A stretch of DNA of 64,000 bases from a virus. The notes below the pieces were generated by a model, which saw nothing but the letters and a program-made list of their open reading frames with translations, ran no database searches and was not told where the DNA came from. Location of the stretch: IMG/VR virus record IMGVR_UViG_3300029374_000001, positions 32,001-96,000 of that record, one strand, 5' to 3'. Each line of letters starts with the position of its first letter. Position 1 is the stretch's first letter. Below, in pieces: positions 2,749 to 51,144 of this stretch. The position numbers were made by a program, and so were the translations under genes.

Positions 2749-5352
2749 ATGAAACCTAGTCAAAGTATTGCTTTTCAAGATTATAAAGATACAATGAGAA
2801 GAAACATCAGATATTTATTTCCTCAATTAAGTAGTGACGAGTTGGAACGAGCTATAGAATATTCCATAAATAAGAGAATTATAAACTCAGCTTGTCAACT
2901 GAATGACACATATAAGAATGCTGTATATAATACTAATATGTTAGAATTAACAGAGTATATCATGCATGATCGACCAATACTGACATCCTTCGGATGTCTA
3001 TTTCATAGGCATGGAGATATAGATAATCCATTATACATGATGATACAAGAATTTGCAGATAGACGTAACAGATTTAAGAAAGAAATGCTAAAGCATAAAA
3101 AAGGTAGTGAGCAATATAAACATTTTGACTTAGCTCAAGCCGTCGCTAAGGTGGATGTCAATGCTGAAACAAACGCATTCTAATGCGTTTGGGATAGGCC
3201 TCTTTATAAAGTAATTTATAGAGAGAATCCTGGTGAATTGCTGGAAACCGGTAAAGATCTGATAACTACAATATATTTTTAATATATGAATGTGACGAAA
3301 GTCAGAAACAATATCAGATATAACCTAAGCTGAAATAAAAGAGTAGTATATATGAAATTCTTACTTATTTAAAAGAATATATATATTATTTGCTAAGGGT
3401 ATAATAAGAAAATCCGCAATCAGCAGCGAAGCTTCTATATATTATAGAAGAACGTTCAACGACTATTATGTAGAGTACAAGCGTATTCGAAGTGCCAGGC
3501 TCCAATATAATATTGGATGAAGATATAGTCTGTCCATGTATGAGAGTACATGAAGTTCATAAGAGAACTGGGTAGATGTAGCGAATCTATTCGAACACAT
3601 GAGATCTACGGCGCTATGGGGCAACCATCTTCTATATTTTATAACTTTGAAGTGGCAGCTTCCATTACCAGACAAGGAAGAGCTTCTATTGCAGCATCTA
3701 TTATGCTCTTTGAGTCTTTCTTAGCTAACAATATTAAATTTGGATCTTTGAACGAAGTGATTATGTTCATTGATCATATTGTATTAATGAAACCAACTAG
3801 ACAATATGAAGACCATCGAATCTTAGATAGAGATGTCTCTATCCAAGAAGTCTTTGATAAACTAATGAGTTCTTGTGGATATCGATGGAAACCAGATCAT
3901 ACAGAAGCCAATATTATCTGGAAAATTTTACATCAATTATCCCAATTTCATTTAAACAGACTCTATTATAAAAATAATATCTATGCTTTCTTTAATAATA
4001 CCGCACCCAAAGACTTCTTATTGGAGTTATTATATTCTTTGGATTCTCCATTTATCGATCCCAATTCTCCACCACCAATGATTAAGGCTAATTTGGATGT
4101 ATTGGTAGATATGGTCAAAGAGTATATTTATTATCCATATCAGATCATCGATAAAATAGAACGAGTAGAAACATTGTATCGTCAAATCGATTTAGTAACC
4201 GATACAGATTCTTGTATTATTTGTTTAAATCCATGGTATGAATATGTAGCCAATCTAACCAAAGATCTGGATATCGATCTGAAACATTATGAATTGGATA
4301 TAATTGGATTGTTGAATAAAGAAAATCCCAATGATGCATCTGATTTGAAAGAAGAAAGTAAAACAGAATATATCTACGATTTTAGAAATAAAGAAATTTT
4401 GGAAAGAAAACGATTAGTAGATCCATTTAAAATTATTCCAGAAGACGCTATGAGATATAGCATCATCAATATACTGGCATATATCATTAGTAAGCTATTA
4501 CGAGATTACTTCGATCGTATAAGCATTAAGAATAATGTAACTAATGATGCTCATAATTTTTGTTTGATGAATATGAAGAACGAATTCTTATTCTTACGGA
4601 TGTTATTGTCCGATGCTAAGAAGCATTATGCGTCTATTGTAGAACTTCAGGAAGGTCATAAAGTTCCCTTAGATAAGCAATTAGATATTAAAGGATTACA
4701 GATTGATAAGTCTGTTGTACCAGAATCTACTAAAGAAGCTCTTGGAAATATTTTACATGAAGATGTATTACGACCAAATTATATTGATCAAATGAAGATC
4801 ATCAATAAATTGGCTGTTCTGGAAAAGACCATCTATGATGATATCTATAATGGCGGATTGAAATACTATAGTCCTAAAAAGCTTAAACCATTTGTTACAT
4901 ATAAGAATCCAATGAGTACACAGCAGGTTAAAGCTTCTATTGTTTATAACTTATTTAGAGATGAAGATGAGGCATATATCAATATTGATGAAAATAATTC
5001 TGTATTGATTATTGGAGTTAATATTGATGCTCATTCATTAGAATCTTGTAAACTAAAAGAATCGGATCCTGAGAAATATGAAATCATGAGAAAGATTATT
5101 TATGAGAATCCAGTAATTGAAGTTTCTCAGAATAAAATTGCTGTGAAGATATTCAATGATAATCTAGCTCTAAATAGTCGAAAAATTACTAGTATAGCTA
5201 TTCCTAGAGATAGTCAAACACCTAAATGGATACTAGAGTTTATTGATTATGCCAGCATAGTTAAAGATAATATCGGTACCTTCCCATTGAAGAGTATTGG
5301 TATTACTAAGCTAGATACGAACAGTGCGTACAGTGGCATTATCAATCTATAA
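2749..5352 (+). CDS. family B DNA polymerase, C-terminal portion (fingers, motif B, motif C, thumb). Two exons, about 2749..3165 and 3604..5352, separated by a group I intron. The N-terminal exonuclease and motif A are not encoded here, so this is a split polymerase gene
   Basis: Own RBS AAAGGAG and ATG at 2749. Exon 1 ends '...FADRRNRFKKEML...AQAVAKVDVNA'. Exon 2 starts 'IYGAMGQPSSIFYNFEVAASITRQGRA'. Together these reconstitute Pol B motif B (KxxxNSxYG...A.SIT..GR). Motif C 'LVTDTDSCII' lies downstream. The in-frame TAA at 3181 and the ORF-less 3184..3549 are intron sequence. Confidence 0.7.
3166..3603 (+). ncRNA. group I self-splicing intron, ORF-less, in the DNA polymerase gene. The 3' boundary after G3603 is fairly firm; the 5' boundary is approximate
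   Basis: Canonical core elements: P-like 'GAATTGCTGGAAACC' (~3230), Q-like 'AATCCGCAATCAGCAGC' (~3410), R 'GTTCAACGACTA' (~3452), S 'GAAGATATAGTCTGTCC' (~3521). Phase-0 insertion splitting motif B. Homologous along its length to the intron at 49447..49845. Confidence 0.75.
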
Positions 5353-46492: not shown

Positions 46493-47095
46493 TTAATACT
46501 TATTCAAATCAAGTTCTTTATCCCATGCTTCATAGGATGTTTTGACAATATAATCCCAGCTTCTCTGGGCTGCTTCCGCTTCTACAACAATACCTTTGGA
46601 AGGAACTTCTTTACGTTTTACTTTAAAGTTATCCTCTCCTACTTTTTCGAATACATAGTAAACGGTTGGTTTGTTGTTATCCATACTTAATGGATCTGGC
46701 CCTTCTATAACATATTCTCCATTAGGAGTTAAATAGAAAGTCCCAGGCTTCTTGCCAAAAGCCTTATCTGCTAATGCACAATAGTCTAACGCCATCTTAT
46801 TCTTACTGGGAGAATAACGAACGCATCTAAGTTCATTGATTTTTCTACTATATGCATCTCTTTTCATATTGGGGATGTCTTTAATCCACTTATAATCTGA
46901 ACCAACTTTTCCGCCTTCTTCTTTCTTTTCCTCTTTCTTAGGCTCATCCTTTTTAGCAGTTTCTACTACTTTTGTTGTCTCAGATTTATGGAGATCAATA
47001 CCAACTTTACTAGCTATCTTATCCCCATAAAGATATCCAGCAGCAACGATAGCGATAACTATCATTAGAATGCTAACAATATTTCCTCTTTTCAT
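46493..47095 (-). CDS. signal-anchored paralog family member (200 aa)
   Basis: 'AIVAAGYLYGDKIASKVGIDLHK' ... 'NGEYVIEG....YYVF'. Confidence 0.5.
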   Translation of the reverse strand: MKRGNIVSILMIVIAIVAAGYLYGDKIASKVGIDLHKSETTKVVETAKKDEPKKEEKKEEGGKVGSDYKWIKDIPNMKRDAYSRKINELRCVRYSPSKNKMALDYCALADKAFGKKPGTFYLTPNGEYVIEGPDPLSMDNNKPTVYYVFEKVGEDNFKVKRKEVPSKGIVVEAEAAQRSWDYIVKTSYEAWDKELDLNKY

Positions 47096-47113
47096 CTTTT
47101 GACTTCTCCTCCC

Positions 47114-47230
47114 TTAGTCATCAAATTTATGATTCCAACCAATAAATTTTGTTATCTTATCTTGATAAAGATAAGCACAACAACAAATAAAACCTATAAT
47201 ACAAATAAATAAACCAGCATCTACTTTCAT
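47114..47230 (-). CDS. 38-aa TM mini-protein 'MKVDAGLFICIIGFICCCAYLYQDKITKFIGW...' with the family's anchor motif
   Basis: RBS AAAGGAGG; 'AYLYQDKITKFIG' resembles 'AGYLYGDKIANKIG'. Confidence 0.4.
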   Translation of the reverse strand: MKVDAGLFICIIGFICCCAYLYQDKITKFIGWNHKFDD

Positions 47231-47305
47231 AATTAATAGCCTCCTTTTGACTATACTATAATCTCTAGTATCATAGAAAATTTGATACTATTATATCTCT
47301 TCATC

Positions 47306-47355
47306 TCTATATTATATAATTTATAAAAGATTAGATTACAAAAAAGAAAATAACG
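47306..47355 (-). promoter_or_regulatory. sigma-A-like promoter (minus strand): A/T UP tract, TTGTAA, 17-nt spacer, TATATAAT
   Basis: reverse complement of the plus-strand motif TATATTATATAAT...TTAGATTACAAAAAAGAAAATAA. Confidence 0.5.
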
Positions 47356-47585
47356 TATATATAAGAGAGATAAACTATGACCAAATACACGAGCTCATGA
47401 ATAAAGTCCTCCCAGCTTATATTTAACCAAATATTAAATAAAGCTTTACGATTAATAATATAATACTCTCGTACCGTTTAAGTACTATACATATTAATCT
47501 TAGATACTTATAATTCATAACACCCCTTTCAGATACTACAATATGCGGGCATATCGATAATATCTAAAATATAGTTTATCTCTCA

Positions 47586-47640
47586 TCCTTATAATATATA
47601 CTTTAAAAGAACTTAGATTACAAAAATAAAAATAAGAAAG
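47586..47640 (-). promoter_or_regulatory. sigma-A-like promoter (minus strand), repeat copy 2: UP tract, TTGTAA, N17, TATATA
   Basis: same element as 47306..47355. Confidence 0.5.
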
Positions 47641-47865
47641 GTGTATATGACTTTAGAAAATAGTATTCCTCTACTTAAAATTTGTTTCTCTTTTTAGCCT
47701 AAAATAAGATACAGTTTGATAATGAGTAGTATAATACTTTCATATCGTTTAAGCACTATACATACTATATTTAAGTATTTGGAGTTCATATTATTCCTTT
47801 CAGATACTATGCGTCCATAAAAGTTTTATCATAATATCGAAAAGTCATATATACCTTTCTTATTT

Positions 47866-47912
47866 CTATAATATATGCTTTCAAAGAACTTAGATTACAA
47901 AATAATATATGA
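47866..47912 (-). promoter_or_regulatory. sigma-A-like promoter (minus strand), repeat copy 3; adjacent hairpin GAGAAGCTCATATGAGCTTCTC (47911-47932)
   Basis: same element. Confidence 0.45.
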
Positions 47913-47938
47913 GAAGCTCATATGAGCTTCTCATATTC

Positions 47939-48595
47939 TTATGACTTTTTATGTTTTACTATTCTTATACTGATACGATTAGCTATCATGGATTGGCATT
48001 CTTTATTGGGATCTATATCCGTTGGCTCTATAGGAATCTTCCATCCAATATAATTATTCCATCTAAGCCTACCGTGGAAAAAAGTTAAATCAGCATAAAT
48101 CTTAAATGGTCTAAATAAAATACATTTAACTGATTTGTCTATATAGATATCTTTAGCTCTGCCATATTGATCTTCTTTATGATAAATATTCTTCATATCG
48201 ACCGGTTTTGCTTTGACTCCAAATACAAACTGAGCCCATCCATATGCACAATTTCTGGTTAACCATGCTACACGATTCAGATAACGTAAAAATCTTTCTT
48301 TTATAGTGAATGTGGCTCCTGGCTTGAGTGTAACGTATTTAACCCATTTACATATCTTAGGATCTAATCTTCTATGTACAGTATACTTCTCATAATAGTT
48401 ATATCTCATCCATTTAGGAGAATAATCTGTACACCAGTCTTCTGCATCACATGTATCATCCCAAGTTTGCCACAAATGTAAGAATCCTTTTAATTCTCCA
48501 CATTCATCACAAAATAGAGCGACAATCGGATTTGTTATATAACAAATCATCATAATAATCAACATACATGGTAAATACACAATATATCTAAGCAT
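47939..48595 (-). CDS. hypothetical Cys/Trp-rich protein with hydrophobic N-terminus (218 aa)
   Basis: ORF preceded by a ~300-nt structured leader and promoter copy 4. Confidence 0.45.
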   Translation of the reverse strand: MLRYIVYLPCMLIIMMICYITNPIVALFCDECGELKGFLHLWQTWDDTCDAEDWCTDYSPKWMRYNYYEKYTVHRRLDPKICKWVKYVTLKPGATFTIKERFLRYLNRVAWLTRNCAYGWAQFVFGVKAKPVDMKNIYHKEDQYGRAKDIYIDKSVKCILFRPFKIYADLTFFHGRLRWNNYIGWKIPIEPTDIDPNKECQSMIANRISIRIVKHKKS

Positions 48596-48904
48596 TCTCT
48601 ATAACACCTCCATAAAAAATAATTGGTATTATAAGAATGTCACAAAAAAATAATCCAGGTGACCTGACAGTCACCTGATATATTTCTGATTACTCTATGT
48701 GTCTTCAGAATCTCCTGGATTATTTTCTTAAAATTATATCGTTTGTTACTCTTCTATGAGCTATGTTACAATCATTCAACGATATCGGATAAATCTGTTC
48801 CTGTATCCCACATTTCCAGATCCACCTCCTTATTGTCTATACTCTATATAGACTTATAATAAGTATATAAAATATTACCTCTGAATATCTTATATACTCA
48901 GAGA

Positions 48905-48952
48905 TATATTATATTATTTCAGAAAAATTAGATTACAAAATAAAAAATAAAG
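48905..48952 (-). promoter_or_regulatory. fourth copy of the UP-TTGTAA-N17-TATAAT promoter element, serving 47939..48595
   Basis: plus-strand 'ATATATTATATTATTTCAGAAAAATTAGATTACAAAATAAAAAATAA'. Confidence 0.45.
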
Positions 48953-48990
48953 AGAGTCAAAAGGAGTACAACTAAAAGCTCTCTTTATTT
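48953..48990 (-). terminator. terminator of the beta-prime N gene: AAAGAGAG...CTCTCTTT stem plus T-run (minus strand)
   Basis: 8-bp arms AAAGAGAG/CTCTCTTT with ATTTTTT on the minus strand. Confidence 0.4.
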
Positions 48991-49200
48991 TTTCTGCCCT
49001 ATACTTATTAGGCAGCTTGGTGTGTGGAGACGAAGAGGGTATAATATGTACTACGTAGTTAAAATCAGTTTCCTTTTTGAGTTTGTTATAGAAGCCTCTG
49101 AATAGGCTTTAGTTCTCTCCCCCTCGGAAGCAGCTTTTATAACCGTAGTACATACTATTCTTTCTCATCTCGCTGATATAATATATAACTCAAAGAATAT

Positions 49201-51144
49201 TTATCTGGCATACTTTTTCTTCAAAGCAATAATCTTATCCATTTGTGTGGGTGTATACTTGTTTCTGGATAAATAGATCAATGCATTTGAATTAATCAAG
49301 GTATCTTTGAATACATTCATAGAGTTATTGAATTTCCCATCATCTCTGGAAATCATCATAGCATTTCTGGGATCAAATACTTCTTGTGCAGACTTCCAAA
49401 ATTCATCATTGACGATATAAATAATATTAAGTGTATCTCCATCGAACGTTGTGGTCAAATAGATTCGCTACATCTACCCAGTTCTCTTATGAACTTCTAT
49501 ATACTTTCATATACAGACCAGACTATATCACATCCATAATTGTATGGAGCCTTGCATTTCGAGTACGCTGTACTCTACACCCCGCGACGGGTTAGTCGTT
49601 GAACCTGTTTGAACAGGTGCTGATTGTCCATTTTCTCATTATACCCTTAGCAAATTAGATATATCTCTTTAATAAGTAAGATTTACATATATCTAACTCT
49701 TGTATTTCAGCATAGGTTATCTTATAAATCGTTTCTACTTTCGTAACCATATAGGTTTTGTAAGCTTTAGGAGTTTCCAGCTTTTAACAAGGTTACTCAC
49801 ACATGTTACCATATATGAGGACTTTTGTATTTTCTAAATACGTTAATCCGCAGCAAATGACGACAATACCTGTAATGGCATACCCATAGTATAATTATCA
49901 TTTATTCCGATACACTTCATAGCTTTGATGGAACCATAATCAATTGTCGGGTTCCTGTTAATAAGTACTGGTATACCACCATCGCTAGTCGCAATGATAT
50001 TTTCAATAATATCTCGGATTCGTTGATCGGGCACAATCTGAGCTTGTTTAAATCTCATATATGCATCATTATACCCAATATTATACGTTCGAACCAAGAT
50101 ATTGATGATTGTTTGTTGTAATAACTCTAAGAGTGTATGATAACTCAATGTGACTTGATTAACTCTTAGGGTTGGATCTGGAACAATAACAGACCGAGAT
50201 GTAAAACTACATCTGCCTCCTATCAGATTTCTTATAATACCTTTCTTACCAGAACAGATATTAACGACTTCTGTGTACAAAGCATTGTATCGATCCTGCA
50301 TATTCCATAGAATAACATTTCTGTATTTAGGAATGTTATACATAGACAACTTATCATTTCTAATCATAGCAGCAATCTTAGCCATCATATTAAAGATCGC
50401 ATTTGTTTCTTCAAAGGTAAATCTGGTTCCTTCTACTTTAAATGGTCGTAAACCTGTAGAATATACTGGTACATTATGAATGAATACTTTTTCTCTATTC
50501 TTCATAATGTCTTTATAGTAGTCTTCTTTCTTACCTTTGAATTTACTATGATAATATTCCATAATCTCATCAAACTTCTGTTCAAATTCAATGAGACCAA
50601 TACCTTTATAGGTATCGTCTAACTTTGTTTTTCTATATTTTCTTTTAGTCTGAGATTGAACTAACTTAGAACTATATTTTTGTATAGGATTTCCATTGGC
50701 ATCCAAATCAATCTCTGGTTGAATGATAGATTCTAATAGCTGTTGCCCTAAATACTTAGATAAAGACTGATAGATATTTGGATGAATGATAGCATACTTT
50801 CCAGTAGGAATCCATCCTGTAATACTGAAGTCTTCTCCAACGAACTTAACTTTAGTTCTACATCTAGGGCAAATCATTCCCTCATTATTTTTGCCCTGTA
50901 ATTCTTTACAATCACAAGAATATCGATCTGCATATGCATCGGGATCTTGTAATGTTTTCATATACTTTTCAGAATAAATCGAGTCGGATCTGGATAACGT
51001 TTTCTTAATATCCAATGGTTCGCTGATAATGAAACCTTTACCAGATTCCATATCTTTTTCTTTTTCTTTGTCTAAATCAATTCTCTCCAATCTTGTTGTA
51101 AATTTACATCCTTCTGGATATTTTACATTTAGATTGATTTCCAT
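49201..51144 (-). CDS. multisubunit RNA polymerase beta-prime subunit, N-terminal portion (split subunit). Two exons, 51144..49846 and 49446..49201, joined across a group I intron
   Basis: N-terminal Zn finger 'CDCKELQGKNNEGMICPRCRTKV'; 'GKKGIIRNLIGGRCSFTSRSVIVPDP' matching '[22 protein letters not shown]'; 'VLINRNPTIDYGSIKAMK'. Exon 1 ends '...FAAD' and exon 2 begins 'FDGDTLNII', restoring the catalytic NADFDGD motif. Confidence 0.75.
49447..49845 (-). ncRNA. group I self-splicing intron (ORF-less) inserted in phase 0 inside the codons of the RNAP catalytic DFDGD motif
   Basis: minus-strand R 'GTTCAACGACTAA' (~49590-49602), S 'GATATAGTCTGG' (~49525), P-like 'GCTGGAAAC'. The 3' ~40 nt 'AGTTCATAAGAGAACTGGGTAGATGTAGCGAATCTATT' are nearly identical to intron 3166..3603. 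The exon U precedes the 5' splice site and the intron ends in G. Confidence 0.75.

What the first reader, a model, noticed from the sequence alone, without database searches (positions are those of the whole stretch)
47231..47938. 700-bp non-coding tandem repeat (about 280 bp x 2.3) carrying an array of strong sigma-A-like promoters
Each unit contains, on the minus strand, an A/T UP tract, TTGTAA, a 17-nt spacer and TATATA/TATAAT (plus-strand view: TATAATATAT..AAAGAnnTTAGATTACAAAAWAAAAATAA). Copies sit at 47306, 47586 and 47866, with a fourth solitary copy at 48905. The 13-mer TTAGATTACAAAA occurs four times and nowhere else in the window. The three tandem copies all read toward the signal-anchor paralog family. 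They would generate nested transcripts with ~230-nt repeated leaders containing conserved blocks (CGTTTAAGYACTATACATA..., CCTTTCAGATACTA). Plausible roles: stacked early promoters for very high early expression, repeated leader sRNAs, or an origin-like iteron region.
Basis: seen in the sequence. Interest (0 to 1): 0.6.

Follow-up and report, generated by a model that had tools for sequence, protein, structure and literature searches.

The report
Tandem phage mini-genes for 31-residue peptide
The supposed non-coding promoter repeat in this gut jumbo-phage genome is really two back-to-back copies of a tiny gene for a 31-amino-acid membrane-type peptide. Each copy has its own phage-type early promoter, and its messenger RNA folds so that its first and last bases pair, much like bacterial small-toxin (type I toxin) genes.

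Summary
The repeat is real. There are two ~280-bp units plus a third promoter copy, and a fourth copy lies 1 kb upstream. The 13-mer occurs 4 times against 0.03 expected. The region is not non-coding. Each unit carries, on the minus strand, a ribosome-binding site and a 31-codon ORF under clear purifying selection (pN/pS 0.11-0.43; variable sites by codon position 12/3/22). The peptide is a hydrophobic, cationic single helix with no homologues outside this phage lineage.

The promoter core is not sigma-A-like. It matches the AR9 jumbo-phage virion-RNA-polymerase early consensus AAATATATATTAT-N6-G, which is over-represented in the window (10 vs 1.6 expected). The phage encodes an AR9/phiR1-37-like split RNA polymerase. 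A box found only at this locus, TTGTAATCTAA, lies at -39..-29.

The predicted +1 is the first base of a 14-21-bp helix formed with the transcript's 3' end and followed by a U-rich tail. The arms differ between cassette types A, B and C but stay complementary.

Related gut contigs carry 0, 1 or 2 cassettes. The best reading is a set of autonomous early mini-genes with "panhandle" mRNAs, resembling type I toxin genes. No antisense antitoxin was found, so membership in that family is not established. Interest is moderate.

The parts
47907..47936 (-). Intrinsic terminator of the upstream DUF7338 gene (47939-48595): perfect 13-15-bp hairpin followed by AUUAUUUUGU, which runs directly into the cassette-B promoter
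   Evidence: (I16)
47862..47900 (-). Promoter of cassette B: upstream box TTGTAATCTAA (47900-47890, -39..-29) and AR9-type early motif AAGCATATATTAT (47880-47868); predicted +1 = A at 47861
47624..47861 (-). Cassette B transcript (~238 nt). 5' arm 47861-47841 pairs with 3' arm 47654-47634 (20 of 21 standard pairs), then U-tail 47633-47624. SD GAAAGGAA at ~47801-47794
   Evidence: (I2)
47694..47789 (-). ORF B, 31 codons plus stop: MNSKYLNIVCIVLKRYESIILLIIKLYLILG
47585..47623 (-). Promoter of cassette A: TTGTAATCTAA (47623-47613) and AAGTATATATTAT (47603-47591; 12 of 13 matches to the AR9 early consensus); predicted +1 = G at 47584
47342..47584 (-). Cassette A transcript (~243 nt). 5' arm 47584-47571 pairs with 3' arm 47378-47365 (14 uninterrupted pairs from +1), then U-rich tail 47364-47342. 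5' hairpin ~47569-47527 ends in the SD (GAAAGGGG ~47530-47523). An ORF-internal hairpin lies at ~47491-47459
   Evidence: (I3)
47423..47518 (-). ORF A, 31 codons plus stop: MNYKYLRLICIVLKRYESIILLIVKLYLIFG
47303..47341 (-). Third promoter copy: TTGTAATCTAA (47341-47331) and AATTATATAATAT (47321-47309); predicted +1 = G at 47302. It drives the 38-aa membrane ORF (47230-47114) and the signal-anchor paralogue operon. The 5' UTR hairpin at 47267-47289 shows a compensatory A-U to G-C change in relatives
48900..48938 (-). Fourth, solitary promoter copy: TTGTAATCTAA (48938-48928); predicted +1 = G at 48899. It is preceded by the terminator 48993-48942. It drives a 13-codon ORF (48813-48772), then terminator 48678-48655, then the DUF7338 gene

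Best explanation
The region is a short array of self-contained early mini-genes, not a non-coding promoter stack.

Each ~280-bp cassette, read on the minus strand, consists of five elements:
- (i) A promoter. Its core is the AR9/phiKZ-type virion-RNA-polymerase early motif (AAGTATATATTAT-N6-+1). A box found only at this locus, TTGTAATCTAA, lies at -39..-29.
- (ii) A transcript whose very first nucleotides form the 5' arm of a 14-21-bp closing helix.
- (iii) A 5' hairpin that ends in the Shine-Dalgarno sequence.
- (iv) A 31-codon ORF for a hydrophobic, cationic, single-helix peptide.
- (v) A 3' UTR whose end forms the 3' arm of the closing helix, followed by a U-rich tail that abuts the next promoter.

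Inferred mechanism:
- The injected or early phage polymerase fires each promoter on entry.
- The closing helix plus U-tail ends the transcript. The result is a monocistronic 'panhandle' mRNA with both ends buried in duplex, hence probably long-lived.
- In cassette types A and C, the start codon region is additionally paired with the 3' UTR. Translation is therefore predicted to be restrained until the structure is opened or trimmed.
- The peptide most likely inserts into the host membrane, like the other small or signal-anchored proteins of the operon immediately downstream.
- The directly repeated promoter-terminator modules allow unequal recombination. This would explain why relatives carry 0, 1 or 2 cassettes of three diverged types.

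Shown: the repeat, the ORF and its purifying selection, the match and over-representation of the promoter motif, arm covariation, strand-specific folding, copy-number polymorphism, and orphan status.

Inferred: which polymerase is used, the +1 position, termination, mRNA stability, translational masking, membrane targeting and any toxicity.
For: Coding:
- 31-codon ORFs with SDs are present in both units.
- All 12 units from 8 contigs keep the frame and length.
- pN/pS is 0.11-0.43 in every informative pair. pS reaches 0.9 between the two window copies. Variable sites by codon position are 12/3/22.

Promoter:
- The AR9 early consensus is AAATATATATTAT-(6N)-G+1, used by the virion RNAP (PMC5312081).
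- Cassette A has AAGTATATATTAT-AAGGAT-G.
- The same motif lies upstream of other genes in the window, including the RNAP beta' gene, where the predicted +1 is 51200.
- TATATATTAT-N6-R occurs 10 times against 1.6 expected; 0 of 100 shuffles reach 10.
- The phage encodes a split beta' subunit ~30% identical to those of phiR1-37 and AR9.

Structure:
- Fold z-scores are -5.2 and -6.4.
- In all 7 distinct units the MFE closing helix starts at the predicted +1.
- 10 of the first 14 helix positions show both-side changes among types A, B and C, with 14, 16 and 20-of-21 standard pairs.
- Cognate arm duplexes score -19.7 to -22.3 kcal/mol. Non-cognate ones score -4.2 to -14.9.
- A +1-anchored helix this strong occurs only at these two promoters among 22 motif sites in the window.
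- The sense RNA folds 15-31 kcal/mol better than the antisense for types A and C.
- The probability that the SD/AUG region is unpaired is 0.13-0.26 in full-length transcripts and 0.34-0.58 in 3'-truncated ones, for A and C.

Peptide:
- AlphaFold predicts a helix over residues 3-30, pLDDT 89.
- GRAVY is ~1.1 and net charge +3 to +4.
- It meets the 10-of-15 hydrophobic criterion of Fozo et al. 2010.

Modularity:
- Arrays are B+A, B+C or C alone. The related phage L010 has none.
Against: - There are no transcript data. The +1, termination and timing all rest on analogy with AR9.
- Only one RNAP subunit fragment was seen in the window. A virion-packaged polymerase is therefore assumed, not shown.
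- Covariation rests on only three independent cassette types, and part of each arm is low-complexity UAUA.
- In types A and C an 11-nt spacer (UUAUAUAUACG) separates the helix from the main U-run. The terminator scan cannot score such long-range stems.
- Cassette B shows no predicted masking of its SD/AUG (0.44 vs 0.40) and no sense/antisense asymmetry.
- The peptide has charged residues spread along the helix; the longest uncharged run is 7-9 residues. A classical transmembrane segment is therefore not assured.
- The function of TTGTAATCTAA is unknown.
Confidence: 0.6

Rival explanations
1. A genuine type I toxin-antitoxin module carried by the phage. The 31-aa peptide is a membrane toxin. 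Its panhandle mRNA is translationally inert. A cis-antisense RNA, not yet identified, neutralises it.
For: - The peptide is small and hydrophobic and meets the Fozo criterion.
- It is duplicated in tandem, with similarity extending beyond the ORF, and occurs as single or tandem copies among relatives. The zor locus (z3289/z3290) is described the same way in PMC2887945.
- The 5'-3' long-distance pairing and SD/AUG masking match the T1TA mRNA descriptors in PMC8594479.
- A sigma-70-like -10 (TATAAT) is positionally conserved on the antisense strand in 6 of 7 units.
Against: - No phage-type early motif lies on the antisense strand.
- No terminator-like site lies on the antisense strand inside the cassettes.
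- The antisense TATAAT is simply the reverse complement of the Ile-Ile codons ATT-ATA, and its -35 is poor and variable.
- There is no homology to any Pfam or NCBIfam toxin family.
- No copies occur in 185,579 bacterial and archaeal genomes.
- As far as I know (from memory, not tested here), the setting is a virulent-type jumbo phage under an early promoter, where post-segregational logic does not obviously apply.
Confidence: 0.2
2. This is a stack of host sigma-A promoters that all feed the signal-anchor operon. They would give nested transcripts with repeated, non-coding ~230-nt leaders or leader sRNAs.
For: - TTGTAA followed by 17 nt and an A/T-rich hexamer is present in all four copies and is enriched (6 matches vs 0.64 expected).
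- All copies point toward the operon.
- If the U-tails terminate poorly, nested read-through transcripts would exist.
Against: - The hexamers at the 17-nt spacing lack the -7 T, and the consensus scan does not report them.
- The conserved core equals the AR9 virion-RNAP early motif, which occurs elsewhere in the window without TTGTAA.
- The 'leaders' are under protein-level purifying selection.
- Each is bounded by a helix and a U-tail.
Confidence: 0.1
3. The functional product is the structured RNA itself (a phage sRNA or decoy), and the ORF is incidental.
For: - Folding is very stable, with z-scores of -5 to -6.
- The closing helix covaries.
- A neighbouring non-coding RNA candidate of similar panhandle design lies at 49171-48942.
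Against: - The codon-position bias (12/3/22) and low pN/pS cannot be explained by RNA structure alone.
- The SD and the 31-codon frame are preserved in all 12 units.
- There is no Rfam match.
- A dual function remains possible.
Confidence: 0.05
4. A DNA-level element: a replication origin with iterons, or miniature mobile cassettes bounded by terminal inverted repeats.
For: - Direct repeats and flanking inverted repeats are present.
- Cassette number varies between genomes.
Against: - The repeats are 277-282 bp apart and number only three or four.
- Cumulative GC skew does not turn here.
- The inverted arms differ between cassette types while the interior is conserved, which is the opposite of a transposon family.
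- The arms begin exactly at the predicted +1.
- G-U pairs make the fold specific to one strand.
- Copy-number changes are explained by recombination between the promoter repeats. L023 has a partly deleted inter-cassette promoter.
Confidence: 0.03

Closest known systems
Tandemly duplicated type I toxin loci (zor-orz / z3289-z3290, ibs-sib, ldr-rdl; Fozo et al. 2010, PMC2887945)
   Same: - The peptides are ~30 aa and hydrophobic.
- Two copies lie in tandem in one intergenic region.
- Similarity extends beyond the ORF.
- Copies are single or tandem in different strains.
- Each copy has its own promoter.
   Different: - No antisense RNA gene was found.
- There is no sequence homology.
- The locus lies in a jumbo-phage genome under a phage-polymerase-type early promoter, not in a bacterial chromosome or plasmid.
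hok and aapA1 toxin mRNAs with 5'-3' long-distance interaction (features listed in PMC8594479; details of hok and aapA1 from my own knowledge)
   Same: - The extreme 5' end pairs with the 3' end.
- The SD/start region is masked in the full-length RNA and predicted to open on 3' truncation (types A and C).
- A 5' stem-loop lies next to the SD.
   Different: - Here the closing helix starts at +1 and is followed directly by the U-tail, so it may double as the terminator stem.
- Masking is not predicted for type B.
- No processing data exist.
AR9 / phiKZ / phiR1-37 virion-RNAP early promoters (Lavysh et al. 2017, PMC5312081)
   Same: - The core is an extended AT-rich motif, AA(A/g/t)TATATATTAT, with a purine start 6 nt downstream.
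- It recurs upstream of several genes.
- The phage encodes the homologous split multisubunit RNAP.
   Different: - At this locus only, there is an extra conserved box, TTGTAATCTAA, at -39..-29.
- The phage is an uncultured human-gut relative with only ~30% protein identity to AR9 and phiR1-37.
5' stem-loop stabilisers of Gram-positive and phage mRNAs (ermC, aprE, SP82 early RNA; from my own knowledge, not tested here)
   Same: A base-paired 5' terminus is expected to protect against 5'-end-dependent RNases.
   Different: Here the partner of the 5' end is the transcript's own 3' end, about 220 nt away, so both ends are protected at once.

Membership tests
Type I toxin-antitoxin system | Small (<60-70 aa) hydrophobic peptide with a predicted membrane helix | tested here: met
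   31 aa; 10 of 15 hydrophobic residues in the best stretch, the Fozo criterion. GRAVY ~1.1 and best 19-residue Kyte-Doolittle window 1.7-1.9. Helix over residues 3-30, pLDDT 89. Charged residues are interspersed along the helix.
Type I toxin-antitoxin system | Antisense (cis or trans) small RNA antitoxin that pairs with the toxin mRNA | tested here: inconclusive
   No phage early motif and no terminator on the antisense strand. Only weak sigma-70-like hits; one -10 is positionally conserved but coincides with Ile-Ile codons. Strand-specific RNA data are needed.
Type I toxin-antitoxin system | Structured toxin mRNA with 5'-3' long-distance interaction and SD sequestration | tested here: met
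   In silico only. The closing helix starts at +1 in all units. SD/AUG is masked in types A and C but not in B.
Type I toxin-antitoxin system | Toxicity of the peptide on expression | not testable with these tools
   Needs expression in a host.
Type I toxin-antitoxin system | Homology to a described toxin family | tested here: not met
   No Pfam, PHROG or NCBIfam hit at E<=1-10. The only cluster among 1.84 billion representative proteins is this phage lineage itself. Nothing was found in GTDB genomes.
AR9/phiKZ-type virion-RNAP early promoter | Extended AT-rich consensus AAATATATATTAT with the start 6 nt downstream (G) | tested here: met
   11-12 of 13 matches in three of the four copies, with a purine 6 nt downstream in all four. 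The motif is over-represented, 10 vs 1.6 expected.
AR9/phiKZ-type virion-RNAP early promoter | Phage encodes AR9/phiKZ-like multisubunit RNAPs | tested here: met
   A split beta' N-terminal fragment at 49843-51144 is 30% identical to phiR1-37 and AR9. Only this subunit was examined. A virion set was not identified in the window.
AR9/phiKZ-type virion-RNAP early promoter | Transcription within minutes of infection, independent of protein synthesis, starting at the predicted +1 | not testable with these tools
   Requires dRNA-seq or primer extension with and without chloramphenicol.
Sigma-70/sigma-A promoter | -35 TTGACA, 16-18 nt spacer, -10 TATAAT with conserved A at position 2 and T at position 6 | tested here: not met
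   -35 is TTGTAA (4 of 6). At 17 nt the -10 is TATATA, CATATA or AATATA, with no T at position 6. The sites are not reported by the scan.
Iteron-type replication origin | Clustered short direct repeats next to an AT-rich unwinding region or initiator gene; strand-skew switch | tested here: not met
   Repeat spacing is 277-282 bp and the interior is coding. Cumulative GC skew is monotonic through 47-48 kb.
Known RNA families (Rfam 15) | Match to a covariance model | tested here: not met
   Nothing at gathering score. Only chance-level hits at E<=10 in 47000-49300.
Intrinsic (rho-independent) terminator | G+C-containing stem immediately followed by a U-run | tested here: inconclusive
   Type B: a 21-bp helix directly followed by AUUUUUAUUU. 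Types A and C: a 14-16-bp helix, then UUAUAUAUACG, then UUAUUUUCUUUU. The stem is long-range (~190-nt 'loop'), which the scan cannot score.

The most novel reading that the evidence does not exclude
The cassettes may be antitoxin-less, time-locked toxin genes. On this reading, the injected virion polymerase makes a very stable panhandle mRNA at the start of infection. The mRNA stays translationally closed until 3' trimming or a later phage or host factor opens it. An early promoter would thus produce delayed synthesis of a membrane-active peptide. Possible uses are lysis timing, exclusion of superinfecting phages, or killing of cells in which infection stalls. The +1-anchored closing helix would at once be terminator, stabiliser and translational lock. 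I know of no such combination described for phage early genes.
Probability: 0.12. Interest if true: 0.7.

Novelty: new variant of a known kind. Interest (0 to 1): 0.42.

Why it matters
- It corrects an apparent non-coding regulatory repeat into a pair of real but tiny genes. Such ORFs are easily missed or mis-called: Logan gene calls extend it to 46 aa, and one NCBI record lists it as a hypothetical protein.
- It shows that the AR9-type early promoter grammar extends to uncultured human-gut jumbo phages.
- It identifies an orphan peptide family with the gene architecture of type I toxins, but in a jumbo-phage early region.
- If the panhandle acts as a combined terminator, stabiliser and translational lock, it would be a compact RNA design of general interest.
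- The 0/1/2-copy polymorphism with three diverged alleles suggests the locus is under ongoing selection in the gut.

Tried and rejected
- Tandem Repeats Finder finds no 280-bp array; the units are too diverged.
- Rfam at gathering and at E<=10 gives nothing relevant in the region.
- There are no tRNA or tmRNA genes.
- blastn against INPHARED phages finds no DNA match.
- An exact degenerate DNA pattern for the peptide core finds no hit in IMG/VR, because relatives differ at the fixed positions.
- Exact look-up of the window peptide finds nothing on record.
- A profile search of 1.84 billion representative proteins finds only the phage's own cluster.
- The GTDB genome scan finds no relatives.
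- Pfam, PHROGs and NCBIfam give nothing for the peptide.
- The 42-44% relatives of the DUF7338 gene (L004-6, L017-22) belong to unrelated phages with sigma-70-like promoters and no cassettes.
- My first panhandle scan used a wrong motif regex and was redone.
- My first arm-pair table had a typing error at position 15 and was redone from the sequences.
- A MAFFT alignment of the arms alone introduced gaps and was unusable for the count of structure pairs.
- RNase III processing of the closing helix was considered. It is thought unlikely for types A and C, whose 14-16 bp are shorter than typical substrates (my own knowledge).

Full report
**Context**

The window is AT-rich (~32% G+C). It comes from a large tailed phage. 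It encodes:
- a family-B DNA polymerase and baseplate and tail-fibre proteins;
- group I introns;
- a split RNA polymerase beta' fragment at 49843-51144(-), ~30% identical to the multisubunit RNAP subunits of phiR1-37, AR9/PBS1 and Staphylococcus jumbo phages.

There is no nucleotide match to sequenced phages. Near-identical contigs of up to 260 kb occur in IMG/VR and in human-gut metagenomes.

**Checking the observation**

The repeat is real.
- TTAGATTACAAAA occurs four times exactly (47331, 47613, 47890, 48928). Expected 0.03.
- The repeat finder reports a 65-nt family at four sites with spacings 282, 277 and 1038. It also reports a 117-nt internal repeat, 74% identical.
- The units are diverged: promoter 87%, 5' UTR ~75%, ORF 72%, 3' UTR unalignable, ~69% overall.
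- That divergence is why Tandem Repeats Finder misses the array.

**The units are genes**

- On the minus strand each unit has a Shine-Dalgarno sequence (GAAAGGGG or GAAAGGAA) and a 31-codon ORF, at 47518..47423 and 47789..47694.
- I collected 12 units from 8 contigs: the window, L001-3, L014/15 and L023-25.
- All 12 keep the 31-codon frame.
- pN/pS is 0.11-0.43 in every informative pair. Synonymous sites are nearly saturated between the two window copies (pS 0.91).
- Variable sites fall 12/3/22 on codon positions 1/2/3.

**The peptide**

- It is MN(Y/S)..L..(I/V)CI.LKRYES.ILLI.KLYLI.G.
- It is hydrophobic (GRAVY ~1.1) and cationic (+3 to +4).
- It is predicted as one helix over residues 3-30 (pLDDT 89).
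- It satisfies the 10-of-15 hydrophobic rule that Fozo et al. used for short membrane peptides.
- It is an orphan. There are no Pfam, PHROG or NCBIfam hits.
- A profile search of 1.84 billion representative proteins finds one cluster, made of this phage lineage only. That cluster includes NCBI DAR06426.1, 'hypothetical protein, Caudoviricetes sp.'.
- Nothing is found in 185,579 bacterial and archaeal genomes.

**The promoters**

- Lavysh et al. (PMC5312081) define the AR9 virion-RNAP early consensus as AAATATATATTAT-(6N)-G+1. They note that phiKZ-related phages share extended AT-rich early promoters with a start 6 nt downstream.
- The copies here read:
  - cassette A: AAGTATATATTAT-AAGGAT-G
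  - cassette B: AAGCATATATTAT-AGAAAT-A
  - operon: AATTATATAATAT-AGAGAT-G
- The same motif, without any TTGTAA box, precedes other genes in the window. Predicted starts include 18625, 54144, 55099, 6555, 15835, 49171, and 51200 in front of the RNAP beta' gene.
- TATATATTAT-N6-R occurs 10 times against 1.6 expected.
- Read as a sigma-A promoter, the hexamer at the 17-nt spacing lacks the essential last T. The consensus scan does not report these sites.
- I therefore read them as AR9-type early promoters.
- TTGTAATCTAA at -39..-29 is an additional box peculiar to this locus. It is invariant in all relatives, including the more distant L010. Its role is unknown.

**The RNA**

- Taking +1 six nucleotides after the motif, every cassette transcript begins with the 5' arm of a helix whose partner is the end of the 3' UTR:
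  - type A: 14 uninterrupted pairs
  - type C: 16 uninterrupted pairs
  - type B: 20 of 21 standard pairs
- The arm sequences differ between types. 10 of the first 14 positions have changed on both sides while keeping pairing.
- Cognate arms pair at -19.7 to -22.3 kcal/mol. Non-cognate arms pair at -4.2 to -14.9.
- Whole units fold with z-scores of -5.2 and -6.4.
- The MFE structure of each of 7 distinct units has the closing helix starting at nucleotide 1.
- Among 22 early-motif sites in the window, only these two have such a +1-anchored helix; only 0-0.6% of random window positions score as well.
- For types A and C the sense RNA is 15-31 kcal/mol more stable than the antisense. This shows the G-U pairs are specific to the transcribed strand and argues against a DNA-level palindrome.
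- RNAalifold also recovers a 5' hairpin whose 3' strand runs into the SD, and a hairpin inside the ORF.
- The helix is followed by a U-rich tail that abuts the next TTGTAATCTAA box.
- The two other promoter copies are likewise preceded by ordinary hairpin-plus-U terminators, at 47936-47907 and 48993-48942.
- The locus is therefore a chain of terminator-promoter modules. In the cassettes the terminator stem is the panhandle itself.
- In types A and C the start-codon region pairs with a conserved 3' UTR segment (..UUCAU..). Its accessibility rises from 0.13-0.26 to 0.34-0.58 when the 3' end is removed. Type B shows no such effect.

**Modularity**

- Arrays are B+A (window, L001, L014), B+C (L023, L025) or C alone (L002, L003, L015, L024).
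- In L023 the inter-cassette promoter has lost the TTGTAATCTAA box.
- The related phage L010 has the same RNAP gene, promoter 4, the 12-13-codon ORF, the terminator and the membrane-protein operon. It lacks both the DUF7338 gene and the cassettes.
- Flanking genes are 92-95% identical between contigs, while cassette types are 69-79% identical.
- The cassettes are therefore accessory, diverged alleles or paralogues. They were probably shuffled by recombination between the directly repeated promoter modules.

**Comparison with known systems**

The architecture matches what is described for type I toxin loci (PMC2887945 and PMC8594479):
- a ~30-aa hydrophobic peptide;
- tandem copies with similarity beyond the ORF;
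- single or double copies among strains;
- 5'-3' long-distance pairing and SD masking.

The defining antitoxin RNA was not found.
- There is no phage-type motif or terminator on the antisense strand.
- There are only weak sigma-70-like hits. The one positionally conserved -10 is the reverse complement of two Ile codons.
- There is no homology to known toxins.

I therefore say it works like a type I toxin gene but do not file it as one.

Other alternatives are disfavoured by the evidence listed under the rival explanations. These are a sigma-A promoter stack with non-coding leaders, an RNA-only product, an origin with iterons, and a mobile element with terminal inverted repeats.

**Verdict**

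- The main content was missed: two small genes with an unusual panhandle mRNA.
- Interest is moderate. The finding is a new orphan peptide family and a neat RNA design in an uncultured gut jumbo phage, but function remains inferred.

Noticed in passing
window 49171-48942 (minus strand); L010 3499-3730; L001 5427-5654: Candidate ~230-nt non-coding RNA. It starts at the predicted +1 of an AR9-type early motif (TATATATTAT at 49187-49178). It has a rod-like panhandle domain (nt 1-145), a small hairpin and an intrinsic terminator (48993-48942). It is conserved in all relatives and in the more distant L010, with compensatory changes. Its 19-codon ORF is destroyed in L010. No Rfam match at E<=10.
   Followed up: partly
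window 49498-49866 (minus strand): The RNAP beta' gene is interrupted inside the catalytic NADFDGD motif (...SFAAD | FDGDTLN...). The interrupting element scores as a sub-threshold group I intron (31 bits, E=4e-6; gathering score 50). In L010 the same gene is interrupted at a different site (...VLINRN | PTIDYG...).
   Followed up: partly
window 3179-3552 (+): A group I intron passing Rfam's gathering score (61 bits). It lies immediately upstream of the ORF that carries the C-terminal part of a divergent family-B DNA polymerase (3550-5352).
   Followed up: no
window 48813-48772 (minus strand); L010 3853-3891: A 13-codon ORF, MWDTGTDLSDIVE, with a strong SD (AAGGAGGTG). It lies downstream of the fourth promoter copy and is followed by terminator 48678-48655. 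It is conserved as MWDTGTDLSDII in L010. It may be another micro-gene or a leader peptide for the DUF7338 gene.
   Followed up: partly
window 47267-47289 (minus strand), 5' UTR of the 38-aa ORF / signal-anchor operon: A conserved 5' UTR hairpin (AGUAUCAAAUUUUCUAUGAUACU). L003 and L010 show a compensatory A-U to G-C change (GGUAUC...GAUACC).
   Followed up: no
window 47939-48595 plus 47342-47900, compared with L010 3700-4085: The DUF7338 gene and the peptide cassettes form an accessory insert. It is absent from a related phage that otherwise keeps the RNAP gene, promoter, micro-ORF, terminator and membrane-protein operon in the same order.
   Followed up: yes
L023 2960-2985: In one B+C array the inter-cassette promoter has lost the TTGTAATCTAA box, and its core reads TATATACTAT. 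It may be a decaying promoter or a recombination scar.
   Followed up: no
L023-L025 (Logan gene calls): Automatic gene callers extend the type C ORF to 46 aa from an upstream in-frame ATG. That ATG is out of frame in other type C units (L002), where the upstream sequence differs by a 1-bp indel. The SD-preceded 31-codon ORF is the conserved one.
   Followed up: yes
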